DNA from: a virus
IMG/VR virus record: IMGVR_UViG_3300017917_000894
Coordinates: 8,294-72,293 of that record
Length of the DNA: 64,000 nt
Direction: 5' to 3' (one strand)
Shown piece by piece: positions 6,379 to 64,000 of this stretch. Under the pieces are notes generated by a model. It searched no databases and was not told the DNA's origin. It saw nothing but the letters and a program-made list of their open reading frames with translations. Position 1 is the first letter of the stretch. Each line of letters begins with the position of its first letter. The position numbers were made by a program, and so were the translations under genes.

Positions 6379-7263
6379 GAGAAATTTTGTTATTTGTTGA
6401 TCTGCTCCATTGATACAAGAAATCATTTTACAAACCTGCGGTTCAACAGGCAATTCGAAACTTTTAAAAATATTTCCGTATTGCCCGTTGTTACAATTGC
6501 TTCCGTTAAGCCAACCGTCATGTGAAATACGTATTGTTTCAATCCCTAAATTACACAATTGACCTGTAAAACTAGGATTGTTTGCTACTGCTAGATCTTG
6601 TTTTTCCACAAATGTCAAGGGAACTTCTCTAAAATTATTTTCAACCCACTCTTTTCCAAAGAGTATTTCTTGTTGCTCTTTAGTATAAGGGTAAAGACCC
6701 CCGAAGGTATCGGCCTGTATATACAGCGGAGTTTTGTTAACATAAATTCCATGTTCTTGTTCTAAATCACTAGCCCGTCGGCAGTCTTGCTCAAAAAAGT
6801 CATGCCTTATAGGCACCGAAATATTTAGAGTTTTATTTTTACTTTGAAATATCTGTATAATAAATCTAACTAAATTAGGATTTTGCCAATAGTGATAGGT
6901 TAGATCTAGATGATCAATATAAGGTTCTACTGCCCACCAGTTTAACCACATCTTTCCGCCGGCAGTTTTCAAATACATTGTAGAGTTTTCTGTTTTACAG
7001 ATTTTTAACAATTCGGGAAAATCAAAAAATTCTAATAACTCTCCTCCGTCAAAATTCCAATGTATGGCCCTATCTAATCGTGCATAATGATCAACAATTC
7101 TTCTAGCTACAATTAAATAGGTTTCAATGCTTTCTGGCTTATCGCCGCCCCAAAATTTTGACGGGCAATAAGAACAACCACCTGTACAATAATTGGTTAT
7201 GTTCCAAAAAACTTTTACGTGTTTATTCATAAGTTCTAAATAATGTTGACTTTTATTCAACAT
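6373..7263 (-). CDS. Radical SAM protein with a C-terminal Cys cluster (start may be 7230)
   Basis: CTGGCSYC (CxxxCxxC), GGE motif, and C-terminal CNLG..CNNG..CKMISC (SPASM/twitch-like). Confidence 0.8.
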
Positions 7264-7274
7264 TCAGTTAATAT
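7246..7274 (+). promoter_or_regulatory. Sigma70-type promoter upstream of queE
   Basis: TTGACT-17 nt-TAATAT. Confidence 0.45.
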
Positions 7275-7298
7275 TGTAATTATCATTAAAGGTAAAGA

Positions 7299-8153
7299 AT
7301 GGCTAAAATTAAAATAAGCGAACTATTTTATAGTATCCAAGGCGAAGGACGGTACATGGGTGTACCTAGTGTCTTTTTAAGAACATTCGGATGTAATTTT
7401 ACATGCGACGGATTCGGTATGCCGAGAGGCGAGAAAACTAACGAACGACATGCTATTGCAGAGCGTGTCTTAGAATTTAAACAATATCGAGACCTGCCTC
7501 TTGTAAGCACCGGGTGCGATTCTTATGCCAGTTGGGATCCTAGATTCAAAGACCTTTCTCCATTGCTCACAACAGACAGTATTGCAGAAAGTATCTGCGA
7601 AATATTGCCACACAAGGAATGGCGAGATGAACATTTAGTTATTACCGGCGGCGAACCTTTGCTTGGCTGGCAGAAACAATATCCTGCATTGTTAGATCAC
7701 CCTAAGATGCAGAATCTTAAAGAGATTACGTTTGAGACTAATGGCACAATGAGGCTAACTAGTGCATTTAAAGAATACCTAGTTAAATGGCTAATGCCTC
7801 GTCCAGAATTTGAAAGAGAAATTACCTTTAGTGTCAGTGCTAAACTGCCAGTTAGTGGAGAACCGTGGGACGATGCTATCAAACCCGAAGTAGTCTGTGA
7901 TTATGAAAATTACGGAACGGTATATCTAAAATTTGTTATTGCTACAGAACAAGACTTTGCTGATGCAGAGTGTGCAATTGCCGCATATCGCAGTGCAGGA
8001 TTTACTGGACATGTTTATCTAATGCCAGTTGGCGGAGTGGAAAGCGTATACAGTCTTAATAATCGTCGTGTAGCGGAATTAGCAATGAAACACGGATTGA
8101 GATATTCAGACCGATTACAGGTTCCGTTGTTTAAAAATGAGTGGGGTACCTAA
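7299..8153 (+). CDS. queE: 7-carboxy-7-deazaguanine synthase (radical SAM)
   Basis: ELFYSIQGEG, FLRTFGCNFTC...CDS, ITGGEP, ETNGT and RLQ. Confidence 0.9.
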   Translation: MAKIKISELFYSIQGEGRYMGVPSVFLRTFGCNFTCDGFGMPRGEKTNERHAIAERVLEFKQYRDLPLVSTGCDSYASWDPRFKDLSPLLTTDSIAESICEILPHKEWRDEHLVITGGEPLLGWQKQYPALLDHPKMQNLKEITFETNGTMRLTSAFKEYLVKWLMPRPEFEREITFSVSAKLPVSGEPWDDAIKPEVVCDYENYGTVYLKFVIATEQDFADAECAIAAYRSAGFTGHVYLMPVGGVESVYSLNNRRVAELAMKHGLRYSDRLQVPLFKNEWGT

Positions 8154-48292: not shown

Positions 48293-49204
48293 ATGACAAT
48301 AACAACAAGTCCGACAGGAAAGAAAGTAAAGTATCTAAACAACAGAGATTTGCTAGCAGAAATTCATAAAAGTAAGTGTAGTTTTTCTAGTTTTACCAAG
48401 AAAGAATACAGTCAGCATGACATAATCTTACCAAGTTTAGATAAAATAAACATTCGAACCATAGCTGACGCAAAACGAAATAGAGCAAAACGGCTTGGAC
48501 TAGAGATCTTCAATCAATCAAGATTAAACGGAGATCGAAAGATCAAACTAGCCGAGTGTACTCCAGACTACAAAACTATTCAAAAAACTGATCTAGTCTT
48601 TAGAATAATGACGTTTGATCATATTCCTCTTGCTCCGGGACGTAAAAAAACAACTAAAACAACCGCAGACACACACGATAAAGTTAACTTCCCCCCATTT
48701 CAACATTGGAAATTTAACGACCAAGGCGAACTAGAGTGCGTTGGTAAAAGTCACTGGAGAGGTGCACCTGACAACGGCAAGTTTAGTAAAGATCACGGTA
48801 GAATCACTGAAGAATTAGGAAAAATGTTCTTAAAACTCAGCGAGCGATATGCCCAGCGTAGTAATTGGCGAGGTTATACTTACGTCGACGAGATGAAGGG
48901 TCAAGCTATTCTTCAGTTAAGTCAAATTGGCCTACAATTCGACGAAAGCAAATCAGAAAATCCGTTTGCTTATTATACAGCCGCAGTCACCAACAGTTTT
49001 ACCCGTGTACTCAATATTGAAAAGAAAAATCAAAACATACGAGACGATATGCTAGAAGAAAATGGGTTAACTCCTAGTTTGACTAGACAATATCAACACG
49101 AGTATGCAGAAGAAACAGCTCGACAAGCCGAGCTGTATAAAAACTTTAGAATGCCTAAGAGTGAAGAATCTGATCCTGAAGAAGACGAAGAAACTGAGGC
49201 TTGA
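48293..49204 (+). CDS. Late-transcription sigma factor, gp55-like
   Basis: YLNN.DLL, NWRGYTY.DEM and FDE.KS.NPFAYYT...NSF; sits before gp47/gp46 as in T4-like phages. Confidence 0.85.
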   Translation: MTITTSPTGKKVKYLNNRDLLAEIHKSKCSFSSFTKKEYSQHDIILPSLDKINIRTIADAKRNRAKRLGLEIFNQSRLNGDRKIKLAECTPDYKTIQKTDLVFRIMTFDHIPLAPGRKKTTKTTADTHDKVNFPPFQHWKFNDQGELECVGKSHWRGAPDNGKFSKDHGRITEELGKMFLKLSERYAQRSNWRGYTYVDEMKGQAILQLSQIGLQFDESKSENPFAYYTAAVTNSFTRVLNIEKKNQNIRDDMLEENGLTPSLTRQYQHEYAEETARQAELYKNFRMPKSEESDPEEDEETEA

Positions 49205-49249: not shown

Positions 49250-50263
49250 ATGAACCTTTTTAAGAAGGTAGCGTGTTTTACCGATATACATTTTGGTCTT
49301 AAATCAAATAGCGCAATTCATTTGCGCGATTGTGAAGAATTTGTAGATTGGTTTATTGAAACTGCTAAAAAGGAAGGCTGCGAAACTGCAATCTTCCTAG
49401 GTGACTGGAGTCACAATCGAAACAGCTTAAATCTGTTTACATTAGATTCCAGTCTAAGATGTTTAGAAAAACTAGGAGCTGCTTTTGAGCAATTCTTTTG
49501 GTTTCCAGGTAACCACGACTTGTTTTATAAAGACAAGCGTGATATTCATAGTTCAGCATTTGGCCGACATATTCCAGGCGTCACTGTGGTTGAAAAAGTG
49601 AGCACCATAGGTGATGTGACCTTAGTACCGTGGTTGGTAGGCGACGAATGGAAAACTATTAGTCAAGTCAAAAGCAAATACATGTTCGGACACTTTGAAT
49701 TGCCCCTGTTCTACATGAACGCTATGGTACAGATGCCCGATCATGGCGAATTACAGGCCGAACATTTTGTACACCAAGACTATGTTTTCAGCGGACACTT
49801 CCATAAAAGACAAAGTCGCGGAAAAATTCACTATATTGGAAATGCCTTTCCCCATAACTTTTCAGATACCTGGGATGACGCTCGAGGTATGATGACGTTA
49901 GAATGGGGAGGGGAACCGAAATATATTAATTGGGACAATGCTCCTAAGTACAGAACTGTTAAATTATCCGACTTAATTGACAAAAAAGATACCATAATGA
50001 AGTCAAAAATGTATCTTAAAGTAAATTTAGACATCGATATCAGTTTTGAAGAAGCAAATCTTATCAAGGAGACCTTTACCAATGATCACGATGTACGAGA
50101 AATTAGCCTTATACAGGACAAAACAAACCTTGACGGGACGTATGAAGACAATCCTGACGCAAAGTTTGAAAGCGTCGATCAAATTGTTTCAGAACAACTA
50201 GTGAACATCGATTCTACACAGATTGATAAAAAGATGCTACTAGAAATTTACAATAGCCTATGA
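49250..50263 (+). CDS. Recombination endonuclease subunit gp47 (Mre11/SbcD-like)
   Basis: DIHFG, LGD, GNHD, GH and SGHFH metallophosphoesterase motifs. Confidence 0.93.
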   Translation: MNLFKKVACFTDIHFGLKSNSAIHLRDCEEFVDWFIETAKKEGCETAIFLGDWSHNRNSLNLFTLDSSLRCLEKLGAAFEQFFWFPGNHDLFYKDKRDIHSSAFGRHIPGVTVVEKVSTIGDVTLVPWLVGDEWKTISQVKSKYMFGHFELPLFYMNAMVQMPDHGELQAEHFVHQDYVFSGHFHKRQSRGKIHYIGNAFPHNFSDTWDDARGMMTLEWGGEPKYINWDNAPKYRTVKLSDLIDKKDTIMKSKMYLKVNLDIDISFEEANLIKETFTNDHDVREISLIQDKTNLDGTYEDNPDAKFESVDQIVSEQLVNIDSTQIDKKMLLEIYNSL

Positions 50264-52041
50264 CATTCAAAATTAAAAATTTAACAGTGAAAAACTTTAT
50301 GTCTGTGGGCAATCAAACACAGGCAGTGGACTTCGGTAAGGAACACCTAACATTAGTTTTAGGATCTAATTTAGACCTCGGTGGCGATGACACTGGTTCA
50401 CGCAACGGTACAGGTAAGACTACTATTATTAACGCATTGAGTTATGCGCTCTACGGGCAGGCTTTGACAAACATCCGTAAAGAAAATCTTATTAACAAAA
50501 CTAACGGTAAGGCCATGTTGGTCACTGTTGAATTTGAAAAGGGCGGTGCAAAATATCGAATTGAGCGTGGTCGTAAACCCAATGTACTAAAATTATTTGT
50601 CAACGACAACGAAATTAAAAGCAAAGAAGAAGAAGACGAAAGCCAAGGAGATAGTAGAGAAACTCAAAAGGCAATCGAAGAAATGCTTGAAATGTCGCAT
50701 ACAATGTTCAAGCATTTAGTTGCACTAAACACCTATACAGAACCTTTTTTAAGTATGCGAGCCGCTGATCAACGCGAAGTCATTGAGCAACTGCTTGGTA
50801 TTACGTTACTTTCCGAAAAGGCAGAAGTACTTAAAAATCAAATCAAAGAAACAAAAGATAGTATTCAACAAGAAACTAACAAGATTGAAGCGATTAAAAC
50901 TGCCAACGAAAACGTGCAAAAAAGTATTGATAGCCTACAACTTAAAAGTAATGCCTGGGATAACAAGTATCAGCAAGACCTAGAAAATCTAGGAAAGGCA
51001 ATTGTTCAATTAGAATCAGTAGATATCGATGCTGAGTTGCAGGCGCACGTTGCCTTAAAGGCGTGGGACGACGCTAACACCAAGATTCGTAATCTTAACA
51101 AACAAAAAGCTACACTAGAATCTGCGGTAATTCAAGCTGAGAAAACTCTTAAGAAATATAGAACAGAATTAGAAAGCCTAGGAAATAAGAAATGTCATGC
51201 CTGTGATCAAGAACTTCACGACCACAAGCACGAAGAGATGACTGCTACTGCTACACAACATTATGAAGAAGCTTTCGAATACTTTCAGAAGATAAGTGCT
51301 CAACTTAAACAAATAGTAGAAGAAATAGGCGACGGAACACTTCCAAGTAAACCTAATACATTCTACGATACAGAAGCAGAAGCTCTAGGTCATAAAAATA
51401 ATCTTGCTAACCTAGAACGAACGCTTCTAGGAAAAGCAGAAGAAAAAAATCCCTATGCTGAGCAAATTGAAGAACTAAAACAAAAAGCTATTCAAGAAAT
51501 TAGCTGGGATGCTATTAATACATTGAGCAGATTAAAAGATCATCAAGAATTTTTACATAAACTACTGACTAACAAAGATAGTTTTATCCGTAAAAAGATT
51601 ATTGATCAAAATTTAACCTACTTAAACAAGCGACTGACCTATTACATTGATAAACTAGGACTTCCGCATAAGGTAGTTTTTCAAAACGACCTTACCGTAG
51701 AAATTACACAACTTGGGCAAGACTTAGACTTCGATAATTTGAGTCGTGGAGAACGCAATAGACTAATCTTAAGTATGAGCTTTGCCTTCCGTGATGTATG
51801 GGAAGGACTATATCAAAGCATTAATTTATTGTTTATCGACGAACTTGTAGATGCCGGCATGGATAGTGCTGGTGTAGAATCTGCTCTTGCTGTCCTAAAA
51901 AAGATGGCCAGAGAGAGAAATAAGAATATATACTTAATATCTCACAAGGATGAATTAGTAGGCAGAGTTAACAATGTACTTAGAGTAATAAAAGAGAATG
52001 GTTTTACCAGTTATTCAAACGATGTCGAATATGTCGAATGA
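50260..52041 (+). CDS. Recombination ATPase gp46 (Rad50/SbcC-like)
   Basis: NGTGKTT, coiled coil with CHAC zinc hook, LSRGE, FIDE and SH. Confidence 0.95.
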   Translation: MTFKIKNLTVKNFMSVGNQTQAVDFGKEHLTLVLGSNLDLGGDDTGSRNGTGKTTIINALSYALYGQALTNIRKENLINKTNGKAMLVTVEFEKGGAKYRIERGRKPNVLKLFVNDNEIKSKEEEDESQGDSRETQKAIEEMLEMSHTMFKHLVALNTYTEPFLSMRAADQREVIEQLLGITLLSEKAEVLKNQIKETKDSIQQETNKIEAIKTANENVQKSIDSLQLKSNAWDNKYQQDLENLGKAIVQLESVDIDAELQAHVALKAWDDANTKIRNLNKQKATLESAVIQAEKTLKKYRTELESLGNKKCHACDQELHDHKHEEMTATATQHYEEAFEYFQKISAQLKQIVEEIGDGTLPSKPNTFYDTEAEALGHKNNLANLERTLLGKAEEKNPYAEQIEELKQKAIQEISWDAINTLSRLKDHQEFLHKLLTNKDSFIRKKIIDQNLTYLNKRLTYYIDKLGLPHKVVFQNDLTVEITQLGQDLDFDNLSRGERNRLILSMSFAFRDVWEGLYQSINLLFIDELVDAGMDSAGVESALAVLKKMARERNKNIYLISHKDELVGRVNNVLRVIKENGFTSYSNDVEYVE

Positions 52042-52315
52042 ACAATTAGAAAAATACAAAGAACTATATTCTCAATTAATTGTTGAGCTTGTAGGGTTGC
52101 ATAATACGCATTTGTCTTTTATTAAACATGTCGGTCGAGATACCGGAACAGATACTCGACGGCATATTAGAGAAGTTGTACGTATTGCAACCGAGCTAAA
52201 AAGACAAGGTCAGAAAGTCTGTAAAGAAGAAATGGCCAATAAACGATTAGCTAAACAGCAGAAAAAAGAAAATAAAAATAAGAAAAAACGCAATGACTTG
52301 GTTATATCAAAATGA
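52031..52315 (+). CDS. Hypothetical basic protein
   Basis: Overlaps the gp46 stop; start uncertain (51998, 52022 or 52031). Confidence 0.65.
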   Translation: MSNEQLEKYKELYSQLIVELVGLHNTHLSFIKHVGRDTGTDTRRHIREVVRIATELKRQGQKVCKEEMANKRLAKQQKKENKNKKKRNDLVISK

Positions 52316-52718
52316 AGAAATATCTGTATTACCAGAAGATTGTGTAGGATTCGTTTATATTATTACAAACAAAACAAATAACAGAAAATACATTGGCAAA
52401 AAACTAGCAAAATTCTCAAAAACAACATATAAAACTGTAAAATTAAAAAACGGCACTAAAAAGAAAAAGAAAATTCGCAGCAAAATAGATTCAGACTGGC
52501 AAGAATATTATGGCTCTAATGATCAATTAAACAAAGATGTAGCACAACTAGGCAAAGAAAACTTTATTAGAGAAATACTTTATTTTTGTAAATCAAAGGC
52601 AGAATGCAGTTATATCGAAGCAAGAGAACAATTTAGCAGACGAGTATTAGAATCTAACGAATATTATAACGGACACATACAAGTCCGTGTCCATGGCTCT
52701 CATATATTAAAATCTTAA
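52293..52718 (+). CDS. Stand-alone GIY-YIG nuclease-domain protein
   Basis: GFVY...KYIG, YYGS, F.REIL, E and YYN motifs; Lys-rich insert; no C-terminal DNA-binding modules. Confidence 0.8.
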   Translation: MTWLYQNEEISVLPEDCVGFVYIITNKTNNRKYIGKKLAKFSKTTYKTVKLKNGTKKKKKIRSKIDSDWQEYYGSNDQLNKDVAQLGKENFIREILYFCKSKAECSYIEAREQFSRRVLESNEYYNGHIQVRVHGSHILKS

Positions 52719-52739
52719 GGCACTTTTAGCGGTAATAAG

Positions 52740-53170
52740 CTCAGCGTAGGCCAATATCTTACGCCCTAAACCTGGACCTCGGGTCACAGGGATGGAAATC
52801 TCTCGCCGCCAAGAGTACTCAACCACTGCCCGAAAGGATGAAGATCGCTAACTAAGACCTGCGATTTGGTTGTTTGAAAAGGAAAAAATAGGCAAAAAGA
52901 TGTAGGGTCTAACAAACGCCTACAGCATTTTATAACAAGATAGCGTTTATTATAAAATGTGCCGTTGAATAAAGACAGGATGAGCAGGTACCGGTCAACC
53001 GCCTGCGCTACAATAGTCCTAACGCTATGTGACTGTGCAACTCAGATGATGCCCAGCGTTCTTTGCCCTGTGCGGGCAAAGTGTGACCACTTAATCTAGA
53101 TGATATTAAATCGCTTCGCTTTAAAAATGCTTCGAGCGTTAGCGAAGAAGCAAACGAACGCAGTTCGTTT
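52740..53170 (+). ncRNA. Candidate large structured non-coding RNA (family unknown)
   Basis: About 10 stems, several with G-U pairs and GNRA loops on the + strand, plus an 8-nt loop-loop complementarity. No ORF of 60 aa or more. Confidence 0.6.
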
Positions 53171-53177
53171 ATAAATA
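53170..53177 (+). promoter_or_regulatory. T4-type late promoter
   Basis: TATAAATA upstream of ORF 53235. Confidence 0.65.
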
Positions 53178-53234
53178 ATTAAATCAAATTTTGACTAATT
53201 AATTCAAATAGTCTTATTGAGATAGGAATAAAAA

Positions 53235-53804
53235 ATGAAAATCAGCGAACTTATTGTCGAAGATCAAGTAGATGAACGAGTAGGGCAAGCTATCGGTAAG
53301 GCTTGGGGTGGAGCTATGCGAGGTGTCGGTGCAACTGCCGGTGGACTTGCAGGGTCGTGGGATGCAATGAAACAGGGTTATCGTGCAGGTAAAGCCGCAG
53401 TTTCTGGAAGAGCAAATTCCGATGATCAAGATCCGACATTGACTAGAAATCAATCAGGAACAACTTCTCCAGCTCAACAAGGATCAGCTACACAACAACC
53501 TGCAGGTTCGCAGTCTCAGACTTCTGCTCCTACCGGGCAGGCTGCAAGTACACCTAATCAATCTAATACTGGCACACCAGCTGGGGCTACTACAACTCCA
53601 GCAGCAATGAAAGCCGCTGAAATTGTAAAAGATTTAGATGACGTTTGGGATAAAGCTACTGCTGATCAAGGAAGTCAAACAACTTCAGTTCAAGTTCAAC
53701 AAAAAATTAGAGCAATGGCAAAAGCCGCTGGCATGGCAGGTCAAGTTGTTGAACGTAAAAAGATTGCAGAATTTCACAGCCGTTTTTTAGGAATGACTAT
53801 TTAA
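53235..53804 (+). CDS. Hypothetical late protein, possibly head-internal
   Basis: Late promoter; MKISELIVE..VDE N-terminus; Gly/Ala/Gln/Thr low complexity. Confidence 0.7.
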   Translation: MKISELIVEDQVDERVGQAIGKAWGGAMRGVGATAGGLAGSWDAMKQGYRAGKAAVSGRANSDDQDPTLTRNQSGTTSPAQQGSATQQPAGSQSQTSAPTGQAASTPNQSNTGTPAGATTTPAAMKAAEIVKDLDDVWDKATADQGSQTTSVQVQQKIRAMAKAAGMAGQVVERKKIAEFHSRFLGMTI

Positions 53805-63858: not shown

Positions 63859-63870
63859 ACCAATAAATAT

Positions 63871-63920
63871 TGAGTCTAGATTATTATGCGGAACCCACCG
63901 CGTAGAGCCTAGAACGCTCA
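63871..63920 (+). promoter_or_regulatory. Structured 5' leader hairpin of a late transcript
   Basis: AATAAATA at 63862-69, then nested TGAG/CTCA, TCTAG/CTAGA and TATGCGG/CCGCGTA stems before an AAGGAG RBS. Confidence 0.55.
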
Positions 63921-63938
63921 TAACAAGGAGAAAAACAA

Positions 63939-64000
63939 ATGGGACGTCCAATTAAATCAAAATATTTCGGAACTAGAAAAGGTCTAGGAGTAGGCGGCGA
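63939..64000 (+). CDS. Start of a late gene (3'-truncated), MGRPIKSKYFG...
   Basis: AAGGAG RBS and ATG at 63939; open to the window end. Confidence 0.7.
   Translation, partial: MGRPIKSKYFGTRKGLGVGG

What the first reader, a model, noticed from the sequence alone, without database searches (positions are those of the whole stretch)
52293..53170. Minimal GIY-YIG protein immediately followed by a ~450-nt ornate RNA-like element: possible nuclease-ncRNA system
Seen: the largest ORF-free gap in this gene-dense window starts at the GIY-YIG stop and is nearly tiled by stems. These are GCGTAGG/CTTACGC (52744-64), CCTG-GACC/GGTC-CAGG (52771-90), GAT-GGAA-ATC, a junction closed by CAACC/GGTTG (52820-72) holding CC-GAAA-GG and ATCGC/GCGAT, TGTAGG/CCTACA (52901-24), CATTTTATAA/TTATAAAATG (52926-59), GCAGG..CGG-TCAA-CCG-CCTGC (52984-53006), ATAGTC/GACTGT (53013-36) and CTTTGCCC/GGGCAAAG (53061-81). 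G-U pairs and GNRA loops favour + strand RNA. I see no terminator between the gene and the element. The protein is a bare 141-aa nuclease domain with a very basic insert (KTVKLKNGTKKKKKIR). Established: homing GIY-YIGs such as I-TevI get specificity from C-terminal DNA-binding modules, which are absent here; IscB/TnpB get specificity from an adjacent RNA; phages carry large RNAs such as GOLLD and ROOL. Inference: this is a co-transcribed RNA that could partner, guide or be processed by the nuclease, or a new large phage ncRNA class.
Basis: partly seen in the sequence, partly recalled or inferred. Interest (0 to 1): 0.85.

Follow-up and report, generated by a model that had tools for sequence, protein, structure and literature searches.

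The report
Full-length Polynucleobacter-1 twin-box phage RNA
The gene-free stretch behind a small nuclease gene of this uncultured giant freshwater phage encodes a real, knotted non-coding RNA of about 450 bases whose first third is an orphan RNA motif catalogued in 2010 and whose uncatalogued rest carries the same 7-letter word twice; its function, and any tie to the nuclease, remain unknown.

Summary
52719-53213 is the largest ORF-free gap of the window. It encodes a + strand, multi-pseudoknotted RNA of about 450 nt.

Its first 137 nt (52739-52875) are a full-length match to Rfam Polynucleobacter-1 (RF01718, 115.6 bits, cut-off 37). The remaining ~300 nt have no Rfam match. They are conserved with heavy covariation: 84 pairs, 96.9% paired against 34-45% in slid controls.

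Two single-stranded 7-nt boxes (AGATGAT at 53044 and 53098) are identical to each other in 114 of 120 distinct relatives, although 16 different words occur. I found no complementary partner.

The nuclease partnership is only weakly supported:
- In T4-like phage contigs the RNA follows the GIY-YIG gene in 134 loci, at one fixed syntenic site.
- Two loci have a PD-(D/E)XK nuclease there instead.
- One locus has an extra gene between nuclease and RNA.
- 43 loci carry the whole RNA in an unrelated setting (DUF6641, small tyrosine recombinase) with no GIY-YIG.
- A GIY-YIG homologue in phage Melnitz has no such RNA.

This scan has already reported the same RNA in at least eight other genomes. I class it as a new variant of a known kind, function unknown.

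The parts
52293..52718 (+). 141-aa stand-alone GIY-YIG nuclease gene (SegE_GIY-YIG family), upstream neighbour of the RNA
   Evidence: PF19835 E 2.6e-32 over residues 3-129. phrog_447 E 4.3e-36. AF2 model pLDDT 91.7. Best structural matches are I-TevI catalytic domain Z 8.2, a GIY-YIG restriction enzyme Z 6.7, UvrC N-domain Z 5.5 and T4 EndoII Z 5.2.
52719..53170 (+). Whole non-coding RNA, about 440-450 nt. The 5' end is not mapped and lies at or before 52729. The 3' end is taken as the end of the terminal hairpin.
   Evidence: Conserved from GIY stop to terminal hairpin in 44 distinct relatives (A1). 84 pairs are 96.9% paired, 50 with changes on both sides, 0 of 500 shuffles as high. No coding signal.
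52729..52733 (+). 5' leader strand GCGGU of a pseudoknot with GCCGC (52805-52809). It lies outside the Rfam model.
   Evidence: Helix 1: 5 pairs, 2 with changes on both sides, 95.5% paired.
52739..52875 (+). 5' domain: Rfam Polynucleobacter-1 RNA (RF01718), full length
   Evidence: 115.6 bits against a gathering score of 37, model positions 1-141 of 141. The Rfam pairs hold in 44 relatives.
52876..52900 (+). A-rich linker with conserved AGGCAA-AAAGA
   Evidence: Alignment A1. No pairs predicted.
52901..52924 (+). Hairpin H1 (UGUAGG/CCUACA)
   Evidence: Helix 10: 3 of 3 counted pairs have changes on both sides.
52926..52959 (+). Long hairpin H2. Its loop (52941-52946, UAGCGU) is the 5' strand of pseudoknot PK1.
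   Evidence: Helix 11: 12 pairs, 11 with changes on both sides.
52965..52967 (+). 5' strand (UUG) of pseudoknot PK2 with the loop CAA (52996-52998) of hairpin H4
   Evidence: Helix 13: 268-302 is CG 24 / UA 20; 271-301 is GC 17 / AU 13 / GU 10.
52978..53019 (+). Helix H3 (GGAU 52978-81 with GUCC 53016-19) enclosing hairpin H4 (52984-53005)
   Evidence: Helices 14-16. Pair 283-361 is GC 20 / CG 19 / GU 4 / UA 1.
53022..53027 (+). 3' strand (ACGCUA) of pseudoknot PK1
   Evidence: Helix 12: 6 pairs, 100% paired, 5 with changes on both sides.
53044..53050 (+). Box 1: AGAUGAU, preceded by GUGAC-N8-CUC, single-stranded
   Evidence: Identical to box 2 in 114 of 120 distinct elements, with 16 different words. 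Columns 391/451, 392/452 and 395/455 are 100% 'same'.
53061..53081 (+). Hairpin H5 (CUUUGCCC/GGGCAAAG) between the two boxes
   Evidence: Helix 17: 8 pairs, 3 with changes on both sides, 97.2% paired.
53098..53104 (+). Box 2: AGAUGAU, preceded by GUGAC-N8-UCU
53129..53151 (+). Hairpin H6 (GCUUC/GAAGC) with an internal tandem G.A/A.A and a GC-GNNA-GC tip
   Evidence: Helices 18-19. Non-standard pairs: GA 34 of 44 and AA 40 of 44.
53152..53170 (+). Terminal hairpin AAACGAAC-GCA-GUUCGUUU, presumed 3' end or terminator
   Evidence: A 7-8 bp hairpin sits here in 44 of 44 relatives, with different stem sequences. The U tract is weak: only 3 of 44 have 4 or more T in the next 8 nt. The consensus scan does not call it a terminator.
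53170..53177 (+). TATAAATA, like the T4 late-promoter consensus (recalled), ahead of the next gene (53235-53804)
   Evidence: Read. TATAAATA occurs near the 3' end in 11 of 44 relatives and [TA]ATAAATA in 31 of 44. Promoter function is inferred.

Best explanation
The gap is a gene for a stand-alone, trans-acting structured RNA of mobile genetic elements. It is the full-length form of the orphan Rfam motif Polynucleobacter-1.

Shown here:
- A + strand RNA of about 450 nt.
- A 5' domain that is the Rfam motif, extended by a leader pseudoknot.
- An A-rich linker.
- A 3' domain of about 300 nt with two further pseudoknots, six hairpins and a terminal hairpin.
- The same RNA in two unrelated settings: a lineage of giant T4-like freshwater phages, always between the gp55-gp47-gp46 operon with its small nuclease and the baseplate genes; and elements with DUF6641 and small tyrosine recombinase genes, where it is transcribed divergently from its neighbour and so needs its own promoter.

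Inferred:
- The knotted scaffold presents two single-stranded 7-nt boxes, each behind a GUGAC-N8-YYY lead. These boxes are the specificity part of the RNA.
- Only identity between the two boxes is conserved, not their sequence, and no complement exists in cis.
- The boxes are therefore most likely read by base pairing with, or by matching to, a variable nucleic acid supplied in trans.
- The GIY-YIG nuclease is a conserved neighbour and possibly a co-transcript in this phage lineage. It is not a required partner.
- What the RNA does for the phage is unknown.
For: - Rfam: RF01718 at 115.6 bits, full length.
- Structure: 84 curated pairs including three pseudoknots are 96.9% paired, against 33.7-44.9% when slid. 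50 pairs have changes on both sides. 0 of 500 shuffles reach any measure.
- Strand: G-U pairs are invariant at 18-97 (43 of 44), 137-160 (44 of 44) and 294-306 (44 of 44). Many A-U/G-U alternations would be A.C mismatches on the other strand.
- Not coding: 604 of 678 indel runs are not multiples of three. Column entropy is equal in the three phases (0.583, 0.574, 0.576). The longest open stretches lie in different frames and strands.
- Independence from the nuclease: of 192 loci, 134 have GIY directly upstream, 2 have PDDEXK_15, 44 have no T4-like gene directly upstream (one of these, L121, has GIY further upstream) and 12 are too short.
- The second setting: 40 of 43 such loci have a divergent DUF6641 gene. 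17 of the 21 with at least 1600 nt downstream have a small Phage_integrase ORF.
- L121 has a 266-aa ORF between GIY and the RNA.
- The Melnitz GIY homologue has no RF01718 match and no twin boxes.
- Boxes: 114 of 120 distinct elements have identical boxes, with 16 words. A tree built without the box columns needs at least 30 word changes, against a floor of 15.
- No consistent complement was found within the RNA or the flanks.
- The next gene has a TATAAATA-like word after the terminal hairpin.
Against: - No transcript data. No RNA run was listed, so the ends, own promoter and abundance are unknown.
- In the phage lineage no promoter is evident in the roughly 10-20 nt before the RNA, and no terminator precedes it. 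There the RNA may simply be the 3' end of the nuclease mRNA.
- The terminal hairpin has a weak U tract and the scan does not call it a terminator.
- Single-sequence folding of the 3' part is not better than shuffles on the + strand (z -1.32), and is better on the - strand (z -2.90).
- The neighbour is a small nucleic-acid-cutting or -joining enzyme in most loci of both settings. Chance synteny does not obviously explain that.
- The trans reader of the boxes is purely inferred.
- All loci were found through one exact word of the 5' domain. Relatives with a diverged 5' domain were therefore not sampled.
Confidence: 0.6

Rival explanations
1. Nuclease-RNA system. The RNA is a cofactor or guide for small enzymes that cut or join nucleic acids and lack specificity domains of their own: the GIY-YIG here, PDDEXK_15 in two loci, a small tyrosine recombinase in the other setting. 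The two boxes pair with the target.
For: - The RNA directly follows the GIY-YIG gene in 134 of 137 T4-like loci (134 GIY adjacent, 2 PDDEXK, 1 with an inserted gene). The spacing is conserved and no terminator lies between.
- In L042 and L148 an unrelated nuclease fold (PF24608, E 1e-25) fills exactly the same slot.
- A Phage_integrase ORF of about 190-225 aa, in which Pfam finds only the catalytic domain, lies downstream in 17 of 21 loci of the other setting.
- The boxes are variable and single-stranded, as guides are.
- The nuclease has a conserved, very basic beta-hairpin that could bind nucleic acid.
Against: - All T4-like loci share one synteny, so adjacency is inherited rather than re-assembled. 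GIY identity (57-86%) tracks gp46 identity (55-84%).
- The integrase-like gene starts at least 400 nt after the RNA and is missing in 4 of 21 loci.
- A gene can sit between GIY and the RNA.
- A homologue about 50% identical, with the same basic region, works without the RNA in Melnitz.
- More than 8000 family members exist, far more than the RNA loci seen here.
- No target-like complement of the boxes was found.
- Two identical guides have no precedent known to me.
Confidence: 0.12
2. Cis-acting element. The structure is a 3' UTR that stabilises or terminates the gp55-gp47-gp46-GIY operon mRNA, or a leader that regulates the downstream gene. The 2010 catalogue may have treated Polynucleobacter-1 as cis-regulatory; that reading of its table is partly recalled.
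For: - No terminator or evident promoter lies between the GIY stop and the RNA.
- The RNA ends in a hairpin.
- The 2010 table lists the motif with taxa 'Burkholderiales, fresh water/estuary' and y / y / ? marks. I saw only that passage, without the column heads.
Against: - 450 nt with three pseudoknots and co-varying boxes is far more than a terminator or stabiliser needs.
- The upstream and downstream genes differ completely between the two settings, while the RNA is kept whole.
- In the second setting it is divergent from its upstream neighbour, and at least 400 nt from the next gene on its strand.
- In the phage the next gene has its own TATAAATA-like word after the terminal hairpin.
- The downstream gene is on the opposite strand in several loci.
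Confidence: 0.08
3. The boxes act where only identity matters: at the DNA level as the crossover cores of two recombination sites, or at the RNA level as the jump points of a repeat-copying polymerase.
For: - Only identity of the two boxes is conserved, across 16 words and at least 15-30 concerted switches.
- There is no complement in cis.
- Tyrosine recombinase genes lie nearby in one setting.
- Recalled, not tested here: tyrosine recombinases need identical 6-8 bp overlap regions in partner sites, and template-jumping reverse transcriptases use short identical words at the two ends of their template.
Against: - The boxes are only 47-62 nt apart as direct repeats, which is very short for recombination.
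- No inverted binding arms flank them.
- The phage loci have no recombinase or reverse transcriptase nearby.
- 117 of 119 phage-class elements keep both boxes, so deletion products are not seen.
- The spacing is not a multiple of three.
Confidence: 0.05

Closest known systems
Polynucleobacter-1 RNA motif (Rfam RF01718; Weinberg et al. 2010, Genome Biol 11:R31, PMC2864571; I saw the search listing and one table passage)
   Same: 52739-52875 matches the whole 141-position model at 115.6 bits. All of its helices are kept, with covariation, in relatives. Freshwater origin fits the catalogue's 'Burkholderiales, fresh water/estuary'.
   Different: The model covers only the first third. It lacks the leader pseudoknot (52729-33 with 52805-09), the 3' domain of about 300 nt with two more pseudoknots, the twin boxes and the terminal hairpin. 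The family's function is unknown.
Large ornate RNAs of phages and bacteria (GOLLD, ROOL, OLE, raiA); comparison recalled, plus the listing of the cryo-EM preprint 10.1101/2024.12.08.627333
   Same: Several hundred nucleotides, multi-pseudoknotted, carried by phages and mobile elements, discovered by comparative genomics, function unknown.
   Different: No Rfam match to any of them at E up to 10. It is smaller than GOLLD and ROOL and is not next to tRNA genes (one search found no tRNA in the window). I do not recall twin co-varying boxes being described for those RNAs.
RNA-guided nucleases with an adjacent scaffold RNA (IscB/TnpB omega-RNA; IS110 bridge RNA); recalled
   Same: A structured RNA is encoded beside a small nuclease or recombinase gene, with short variable single-stranded segments in a conserved scaffold.
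   Different: - The enzyme is GIY-YIG, not RuvC/HNH or DEDD-serine.
- The co-occurrence is not obligate.
- The variable segments are two identical internal copies, not one terminal guide or two different loops.
- No target was found.
Stand-alone small GIY-YIG nucleases: I-TevI catalytic domain, T4 EndoII (DenA), SegE N-domain
   Same: GIY-YIG fold: Z 8.2 to 1ln0 and Z 5.2 to 2wsh. PF19835 match. Invariant Y22, Y33, E109 and N126. Like T4 denA (recalled), it is a nuclease of about 140 aa with no DNA-binding module, and here it lies beside the gp46/gp47 nuclease genes.
   Different: No significant sequence match to any solved structure (best E 0.14). It carries a conserved basic beta-hairpin at residues 40-66. 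It sits at a fixed syntenic site, unlike mobile Seg homing endonucleases.

Membership tests
Rfam RF01718 Polynucleobacter-1 RNA | Covariance-model score above the curated gathering score (37 bits) | tested here: met
   115.6 bits, E 2.2e-24, + strand, 52739-52875.
Rfam RF01718 Polynucleobacter-1 RNA | Full-length match with all model helices | tested here: met
   Model positions 1-141 of 141. 26 of the 29 mapped Rfam pairs are standard pairs in at least 39 of 44 relatives; the other three sit in gappy columns. Helices 2-9 are 95.5-100% paired.
Rfam RF01718 Polynucleobacter-1 RNA | Occurrence in Burkholderiales genomes and in freshwater or estuary metagenomes | tested here: inconclusive
   The window is an uncultured virus record. 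The one hit in species genomes is a 6.5-kb contig of a MAG labelled Haliscomenobacter.
Pfam PF19835 SegE_GIY-YIG | Profile score above cut-off (25 bits) over the whole domain | tested here: met
   112.1 bits, residues 3-129 against profile positions 1-123 of 123.
GIY-YIG nuclease superfamily | GIY-YIG alpha/beta fold | tested here: met
   AF2 pLDDT 91.7. The top four structural matches are all GIY-YIG nucleases, Z 8.2, 6.7, 5.5 and 5.2. Foldseek alone was weak: best GIY-YIG row E 0.58, probability 0.80.
GIY-YIG nuclease superfamily | Conserved catalytic Tyr (GIY), Tyr (YIG), Glu and Asn (residue roles recalled) | tested here: met
   Y22 (in GFVY), Y33-G35 (in YIG), E109 and N126 are invariant in 30 homologues. 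The assignment to catalytic roles is by recall and was not tested.
Homing endonuclease of the Seg / I-TevI type | C-terminal DNA-binding module joined to the GIY-YIG domain | tested here: not met
   141 aa, with the domain spanning 3-129. 50 of 53 distinct homologues are 139-147 aa. The best 120 of more than 8000 database relatives are 141-157 aa. The 'longer' length class was not searched.
Homing endonuclease of the Seg / I-TevI type | Sporadic, mobile distribution between conserved genes | tested here: not met
   The slot after gp55-gp47-gp46 is the same in all phage loci that have enough upstream DNA. 134 of 137 T4-like loci have it directly before the RNA.
RNA-guided nuclease with adjacent scaffold RNA (IscB/TnpB-like logic) | Obligate co-occurrence of enzyme gene and RNA | tested here: not met
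   43 loci carry the RNA without GIY-YIG. Melnitz has GIY without the RNA. L121 has a gene in between.
RNA-guided nuclease with adjacent scaffold RNA (IscB/TnpB-like logic) | Variable guide segment complementary to a target | tested here: inconclusive
   Variable boxes exist (16 words), but no complementary site was found in the RNA, the flanks or the window. Host genomes are unknown.
GOLLD / ROOL / other catalogued large RNAs | Match to the family's covariance model | tested here: not met
   No match in 52600-53300 other than RF01718. The seven other rows score 11.5-17.4 bits, far below their gathering scores of 37-75.

The most novel reading that the evidence does not exclude
The RNA is a programmable specificity module that serves interchangeable minimal DNA-cutting or DNA-joining enzymes: the bare GIY-YIG domain here, PDDEXK_15 in L042 and L148, and a small tyrosine recombinase in the other setting. 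Its two identical 7-nt boxes would pick, by pairing or by homology, the sequence on which the enzyme acts, for instance on competing phages or on an attachment site. That would be an RNA-guided system of a kind not yet described.
Probability: 0.06. Interest if true: 0.95.

Novelty: new variant of a known kind. Interest (0 to 1): 0.5.

Why it matters
Polynucleobacter-1 has been an orphan entry in Rfam since 2010. A full-text search for its name found one paper.

This locus and its relatives show three things:
- The catalogued 141 nt are only the first third of a triply knotted RNA of about 450 nt.
- The RNA is shared by giant T4-like phages and by unrelated integrase-bearing elements.
- Two exposed 7-nt boxes are kept identical to each other through at least 15, and by the tree about 30, changes of word.

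Conservation of identity without conservation of sequence, and without a complement in cis, is rare. It gives experimenters an exact handle: change one box, or change both.

For this window alone the gain is modest, because the scan has already described the same RNA in at least eight other genomes.

Tried and rejected
Other RNA kinds.
- tRNA or tmRNA in the window: none.
- Other Rfam families in the gap: only sub-threshold rows.

Coding region: rejected.

Complement of the boxes.
- Inside the RNA: no column pairs with the box columns. Their only strong partners are each other, or two-state splits that follow the tree.
- In the flanks of 152 loci, 1.08 Mb: 87 complementary and 96 same-sense extra hits, with no shared position.
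- One cluster at -61 (TTTCGCT) belongs to a single near-identical lineage, and the site is not complementary in L073.
- In the window: one complementary 10-mer site. Seven matches in all against 2.5 expected, two of them the boxes themselves.

Readings of the boxes, judged from the words and recalled consensus sequences. None fits all 16 words:
- -10 promoter-like words.
- Box C/D or K-turn.
- CsrA sites.
- Anticodon-loop or T-loop mimics.
- Chi-like words.
- A translational hop like that of T4 gene 60.

Pairing between the two N8 spacers: inconsistent across sequences.

A long-range helix GGC (52719-21) with GCC (53051-53): mostly one-sided changes, so left out of the structure.

T4 EndoII identity of the nuclease: fold Z is only 5.2 and there is no sequence match, so undecided.

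Cultured relatives. By gp46 the closest are Sinorhizobium phage Phosso and Pseudomonas phage PA5oct, 48-49% identical. Neither has a GIY-YIG homologue, an RF01718 match or twin boxes within 3.5 kb of gp46.

Expression. No RNA holder was listed by the look-up of sequencing runs.

Not tried: complex prediction, a covariance model of the 3' domain, and the 'longer' and 'shorter' length classes of the protein search.

Not seen: the supplements of Weinberg 2010, which hold that paper's description of the motif.
Full report
What is there.

The window is a 64-kb part of a 72-kb uncultured virus record. Around the finding it carries these genes:
- a late sigma factor like T4 gp55 (48293-49204);
- the SbcD/SbcC-like nuclease pair gp47 and gp46 (49250-52041);
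- a 105-aa ORF;
- the 141-aa GIY-YIG gene (52293-52718);
- the gap;
- a 189-aa ORF (53235-53804);
- a baseplate-hub gene on the other strand.

By gp46 the closest cultured phages are the giant phages Phosso and PA5oct, at 48-49% identity. With ORFs of 60 aa or more, 52719-53213 is by far the largest ORF-free stretch of the window: 495 nt against 220 nt for the next.

The RNA is real, and a third of it is known.

Rfam finds a full-length Polynucleobacter-1 RNA (RF01718) at 52739-52875 on the + strand, at 115.6 bits against a gathering score of 37. Nothing else in the gap reaches any family's threshold, and the window has no tRNA.

In these, not only the Rfam part is conserved. So is the whole stretch down to a terminal hairpin at 53152-53170.

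On 44 distinct sequences, RNAalifold predicted 74 pairs, 36 of them with compensatory changes. I then curated a structure of 84 pairs in 19 helices. It scored as follows:
- 96.9% of cells are paired, against 33.7-44.9% when the partners are slid by 1-3 columns.
- 50 pairs have changes on both sides.
- No shuffle out of 500 reaches any of the five measures.

The curated structure contains three pseudoknots:
- a leader strand GCGGU (52729-33) with the loop GCCGC (52805-09), which lies outside the Rfam model;
- UAGCGU (52941-46, the loop of the long hairpin) with ACGCUA (53022-27): six pairs, all 100% paired, five with double changes;
- UUG (52965-67) with CAA in the loop of the 52984-53005 hairpin.

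Invariant G-U pairs and many A-U/G-U alternations fix the + strand. There is no coding signal. Single-sequence folding energy of the 3' part is not remarkable on the + strand (z -1.32; the - strand gives -2.90). The evidence is therefore comparative, not thermodynamic.

GAT-GGAA-ATC and ATAGTC/GACTGT do not.

The twin boxes.

Two single-stranded words, AGAUGAU at 53044-50 and at 53098-104, stand 54 nt apart on either side of hairpin 53061-81. Each follows a GUGAC-N8-YYY lead.
- In the mutual-information scan the box columns are each other's best partners, with 100% identity rather than complementarity.
- In an alignment of 120 distinct full-length elements from both genomic settings, 114 have the same word in both boxes, although 16 different words occur. 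Five of the six exceptions differ by one letter.
- On a tree built from the RNA without the box columns, the words need at least 30 changes. The floor for 16 words is 15, and the FastTree topology is uncertain.

I found no complementary partner in the RNA, in up to about 14 kb of flanks of 152 loci or in the window. What is conserved is therefore identity between the two boxes, not their sequence. That points to a reader supplied in trans, or to a process in which only matching counts.

I noticed the repeats before consulting earlier notes. The name 'twin-box' is taken from those notes.

Is the nuclease a partner?

The protein is a bare GIY-YIG domain:
- PF19835 covers residues 3-129.
- The model has pLDDT 91.7.
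- The four best structural matches are GIY-YIG nucleases, led by the I-TevI catalytic domain at Z 8.2, rmsd 2.7 over 82 residues.
- Y22, Y33, E109 and N126 are invariant.
- The 'basic insert' is a conserved beta-hairpin of the family.
- The family is huge.

In the T4-like loci the gene sits directly before the RNA in 134 cases. But all these loci share one gene order, gp55-gp47-gp46-(small ORFs)-GIY-RNA-(variable)-baseplate hub. GIY identity to the window (57-86%) also tracks that of gp46 (55-84%). The adjacency is thus inherited within one phage lineage.

Four observations bear on partnership:
- In L042 and L148 the slot holds an unrelated PDDEXK_15 nuclease instead.
- In L121 a 266-aa ORF lies between GIY and the RNA.
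- 43 loci carry the whole RNA, twin boxes included, in a different setting. A DUF6641 gene diverges from it in 40 of the 43. A small Phage_integrase ORF lies 0.5-4 kb downstream in 17 of the 21 loci that are long enough. DUF6876 and a second integrase are also present. None of these loci has a T4-like gene.
- Phage Melnitz has a clear homologue of the nuclease, with the same basic region, next to ribonucleotide reductase genes. It is followed by a 148-nt gap with no RF01718 match and no twin boxes.

Neither gene needs the other. Still, the neighbour is usually a small enzyme that cuts or joins nucleic acid. I keep the partnership as a rival at 0.12 and its boldest form at 0.06.

Most likely working.

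The RNA is a stand-alone structured RNA of mobile elements. Its knotted scaffold displays two matched 7-nt boxes to a reader in trans. In the second setting it must have its own promoter, since it is divergent from its neighbour. In the phage it may be made as the tail of the nuclease operon, since there is no terminator before it, and it ends at the conserved terminal hairpin (44 of 44). After the hairpin, a TATAAATA-like word precedes the next gene. The steps from 'boxes are exposed and matched' to 'read by base pairing' are inference.

Novelty and prior notes.

A full-text search for 'Polynucleobacter-1' found only the 2010 catalogue, of which I saw one table passage. A search for GIY-YIG with structured phage RNAs listed no description of this RNA. 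In the 2023 survey of viral structured RNAs I read only passages found by keywords, none on this element.

The scan's own earlier notes describe the same extended twin-box RNA in at least eight other genomes, with the same open question. My results agree with them, and I re-derived them independently on this window's relatives. The finding is a new variant of a known kind. It is interesting as a family but adds little as one more instance.

Noticed in passing
window 63866-63941 (+): A second catalogued orphan RNA, freshwater-2 (RF02980, 56.2 bits against a gathering score of 49.9). It lies in a 142-nt ORF-free stretch at the very end of the window and contig.
   Followed up: no
L042 and L148, the slot directly upstream of the RNA: A 171-aa PDDEXK_15 (PF24608, E 1e-25) nuclease replaces the GIY-YIG gene between gp46 and the RNA. 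An unrelated nuclease fold thus fills the same position.
   Followed up: partly
L121, about 800 nt before the RNA: A 266-aa ORF (MKILFSGCSFSVGYG...) is inserted between the GIY-YIG gene and the RNA and ends 2 nt before it. The contig has a TARA name, so it may be marine.
   Followed up: no
L005, L010, L012, L013, L063, L071 and others: Several contigs begin or end inside or right at the 5' domain of the RNA. Assemblies would break like this at a sequence shared by many co-occurring genomes.
   Followed up: no
window 53129-53151: Hairpin H6 keeps a tandem G.A/A.A (34 and 40 of 44 sequences) under a GC-GNNA-GC tip. This looks like a kink-turn or loop-E type module, which is a possible protein-binding or tertiary contact site.
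   Followed up: no
window 51998-52315: A 105-aa ORF with a very basic tail overlaps the GIY-YIG start by 23 nt. It has no Pfam or PHROG match, and recognisable relatives stand in only 17 of the 71 viral loci.
   Followed up: no
L196 (PA5oct) about 6520-8034 and L197 (Phosso) 6902-7915: Both cultured giant relatives have stretches of 1-1.5 kb near gp46 that are poorly coding or unannotated. These hold no Rfam match and no twin boxes. Whether they hold other RNAs was not examined.
   Followed up: partly
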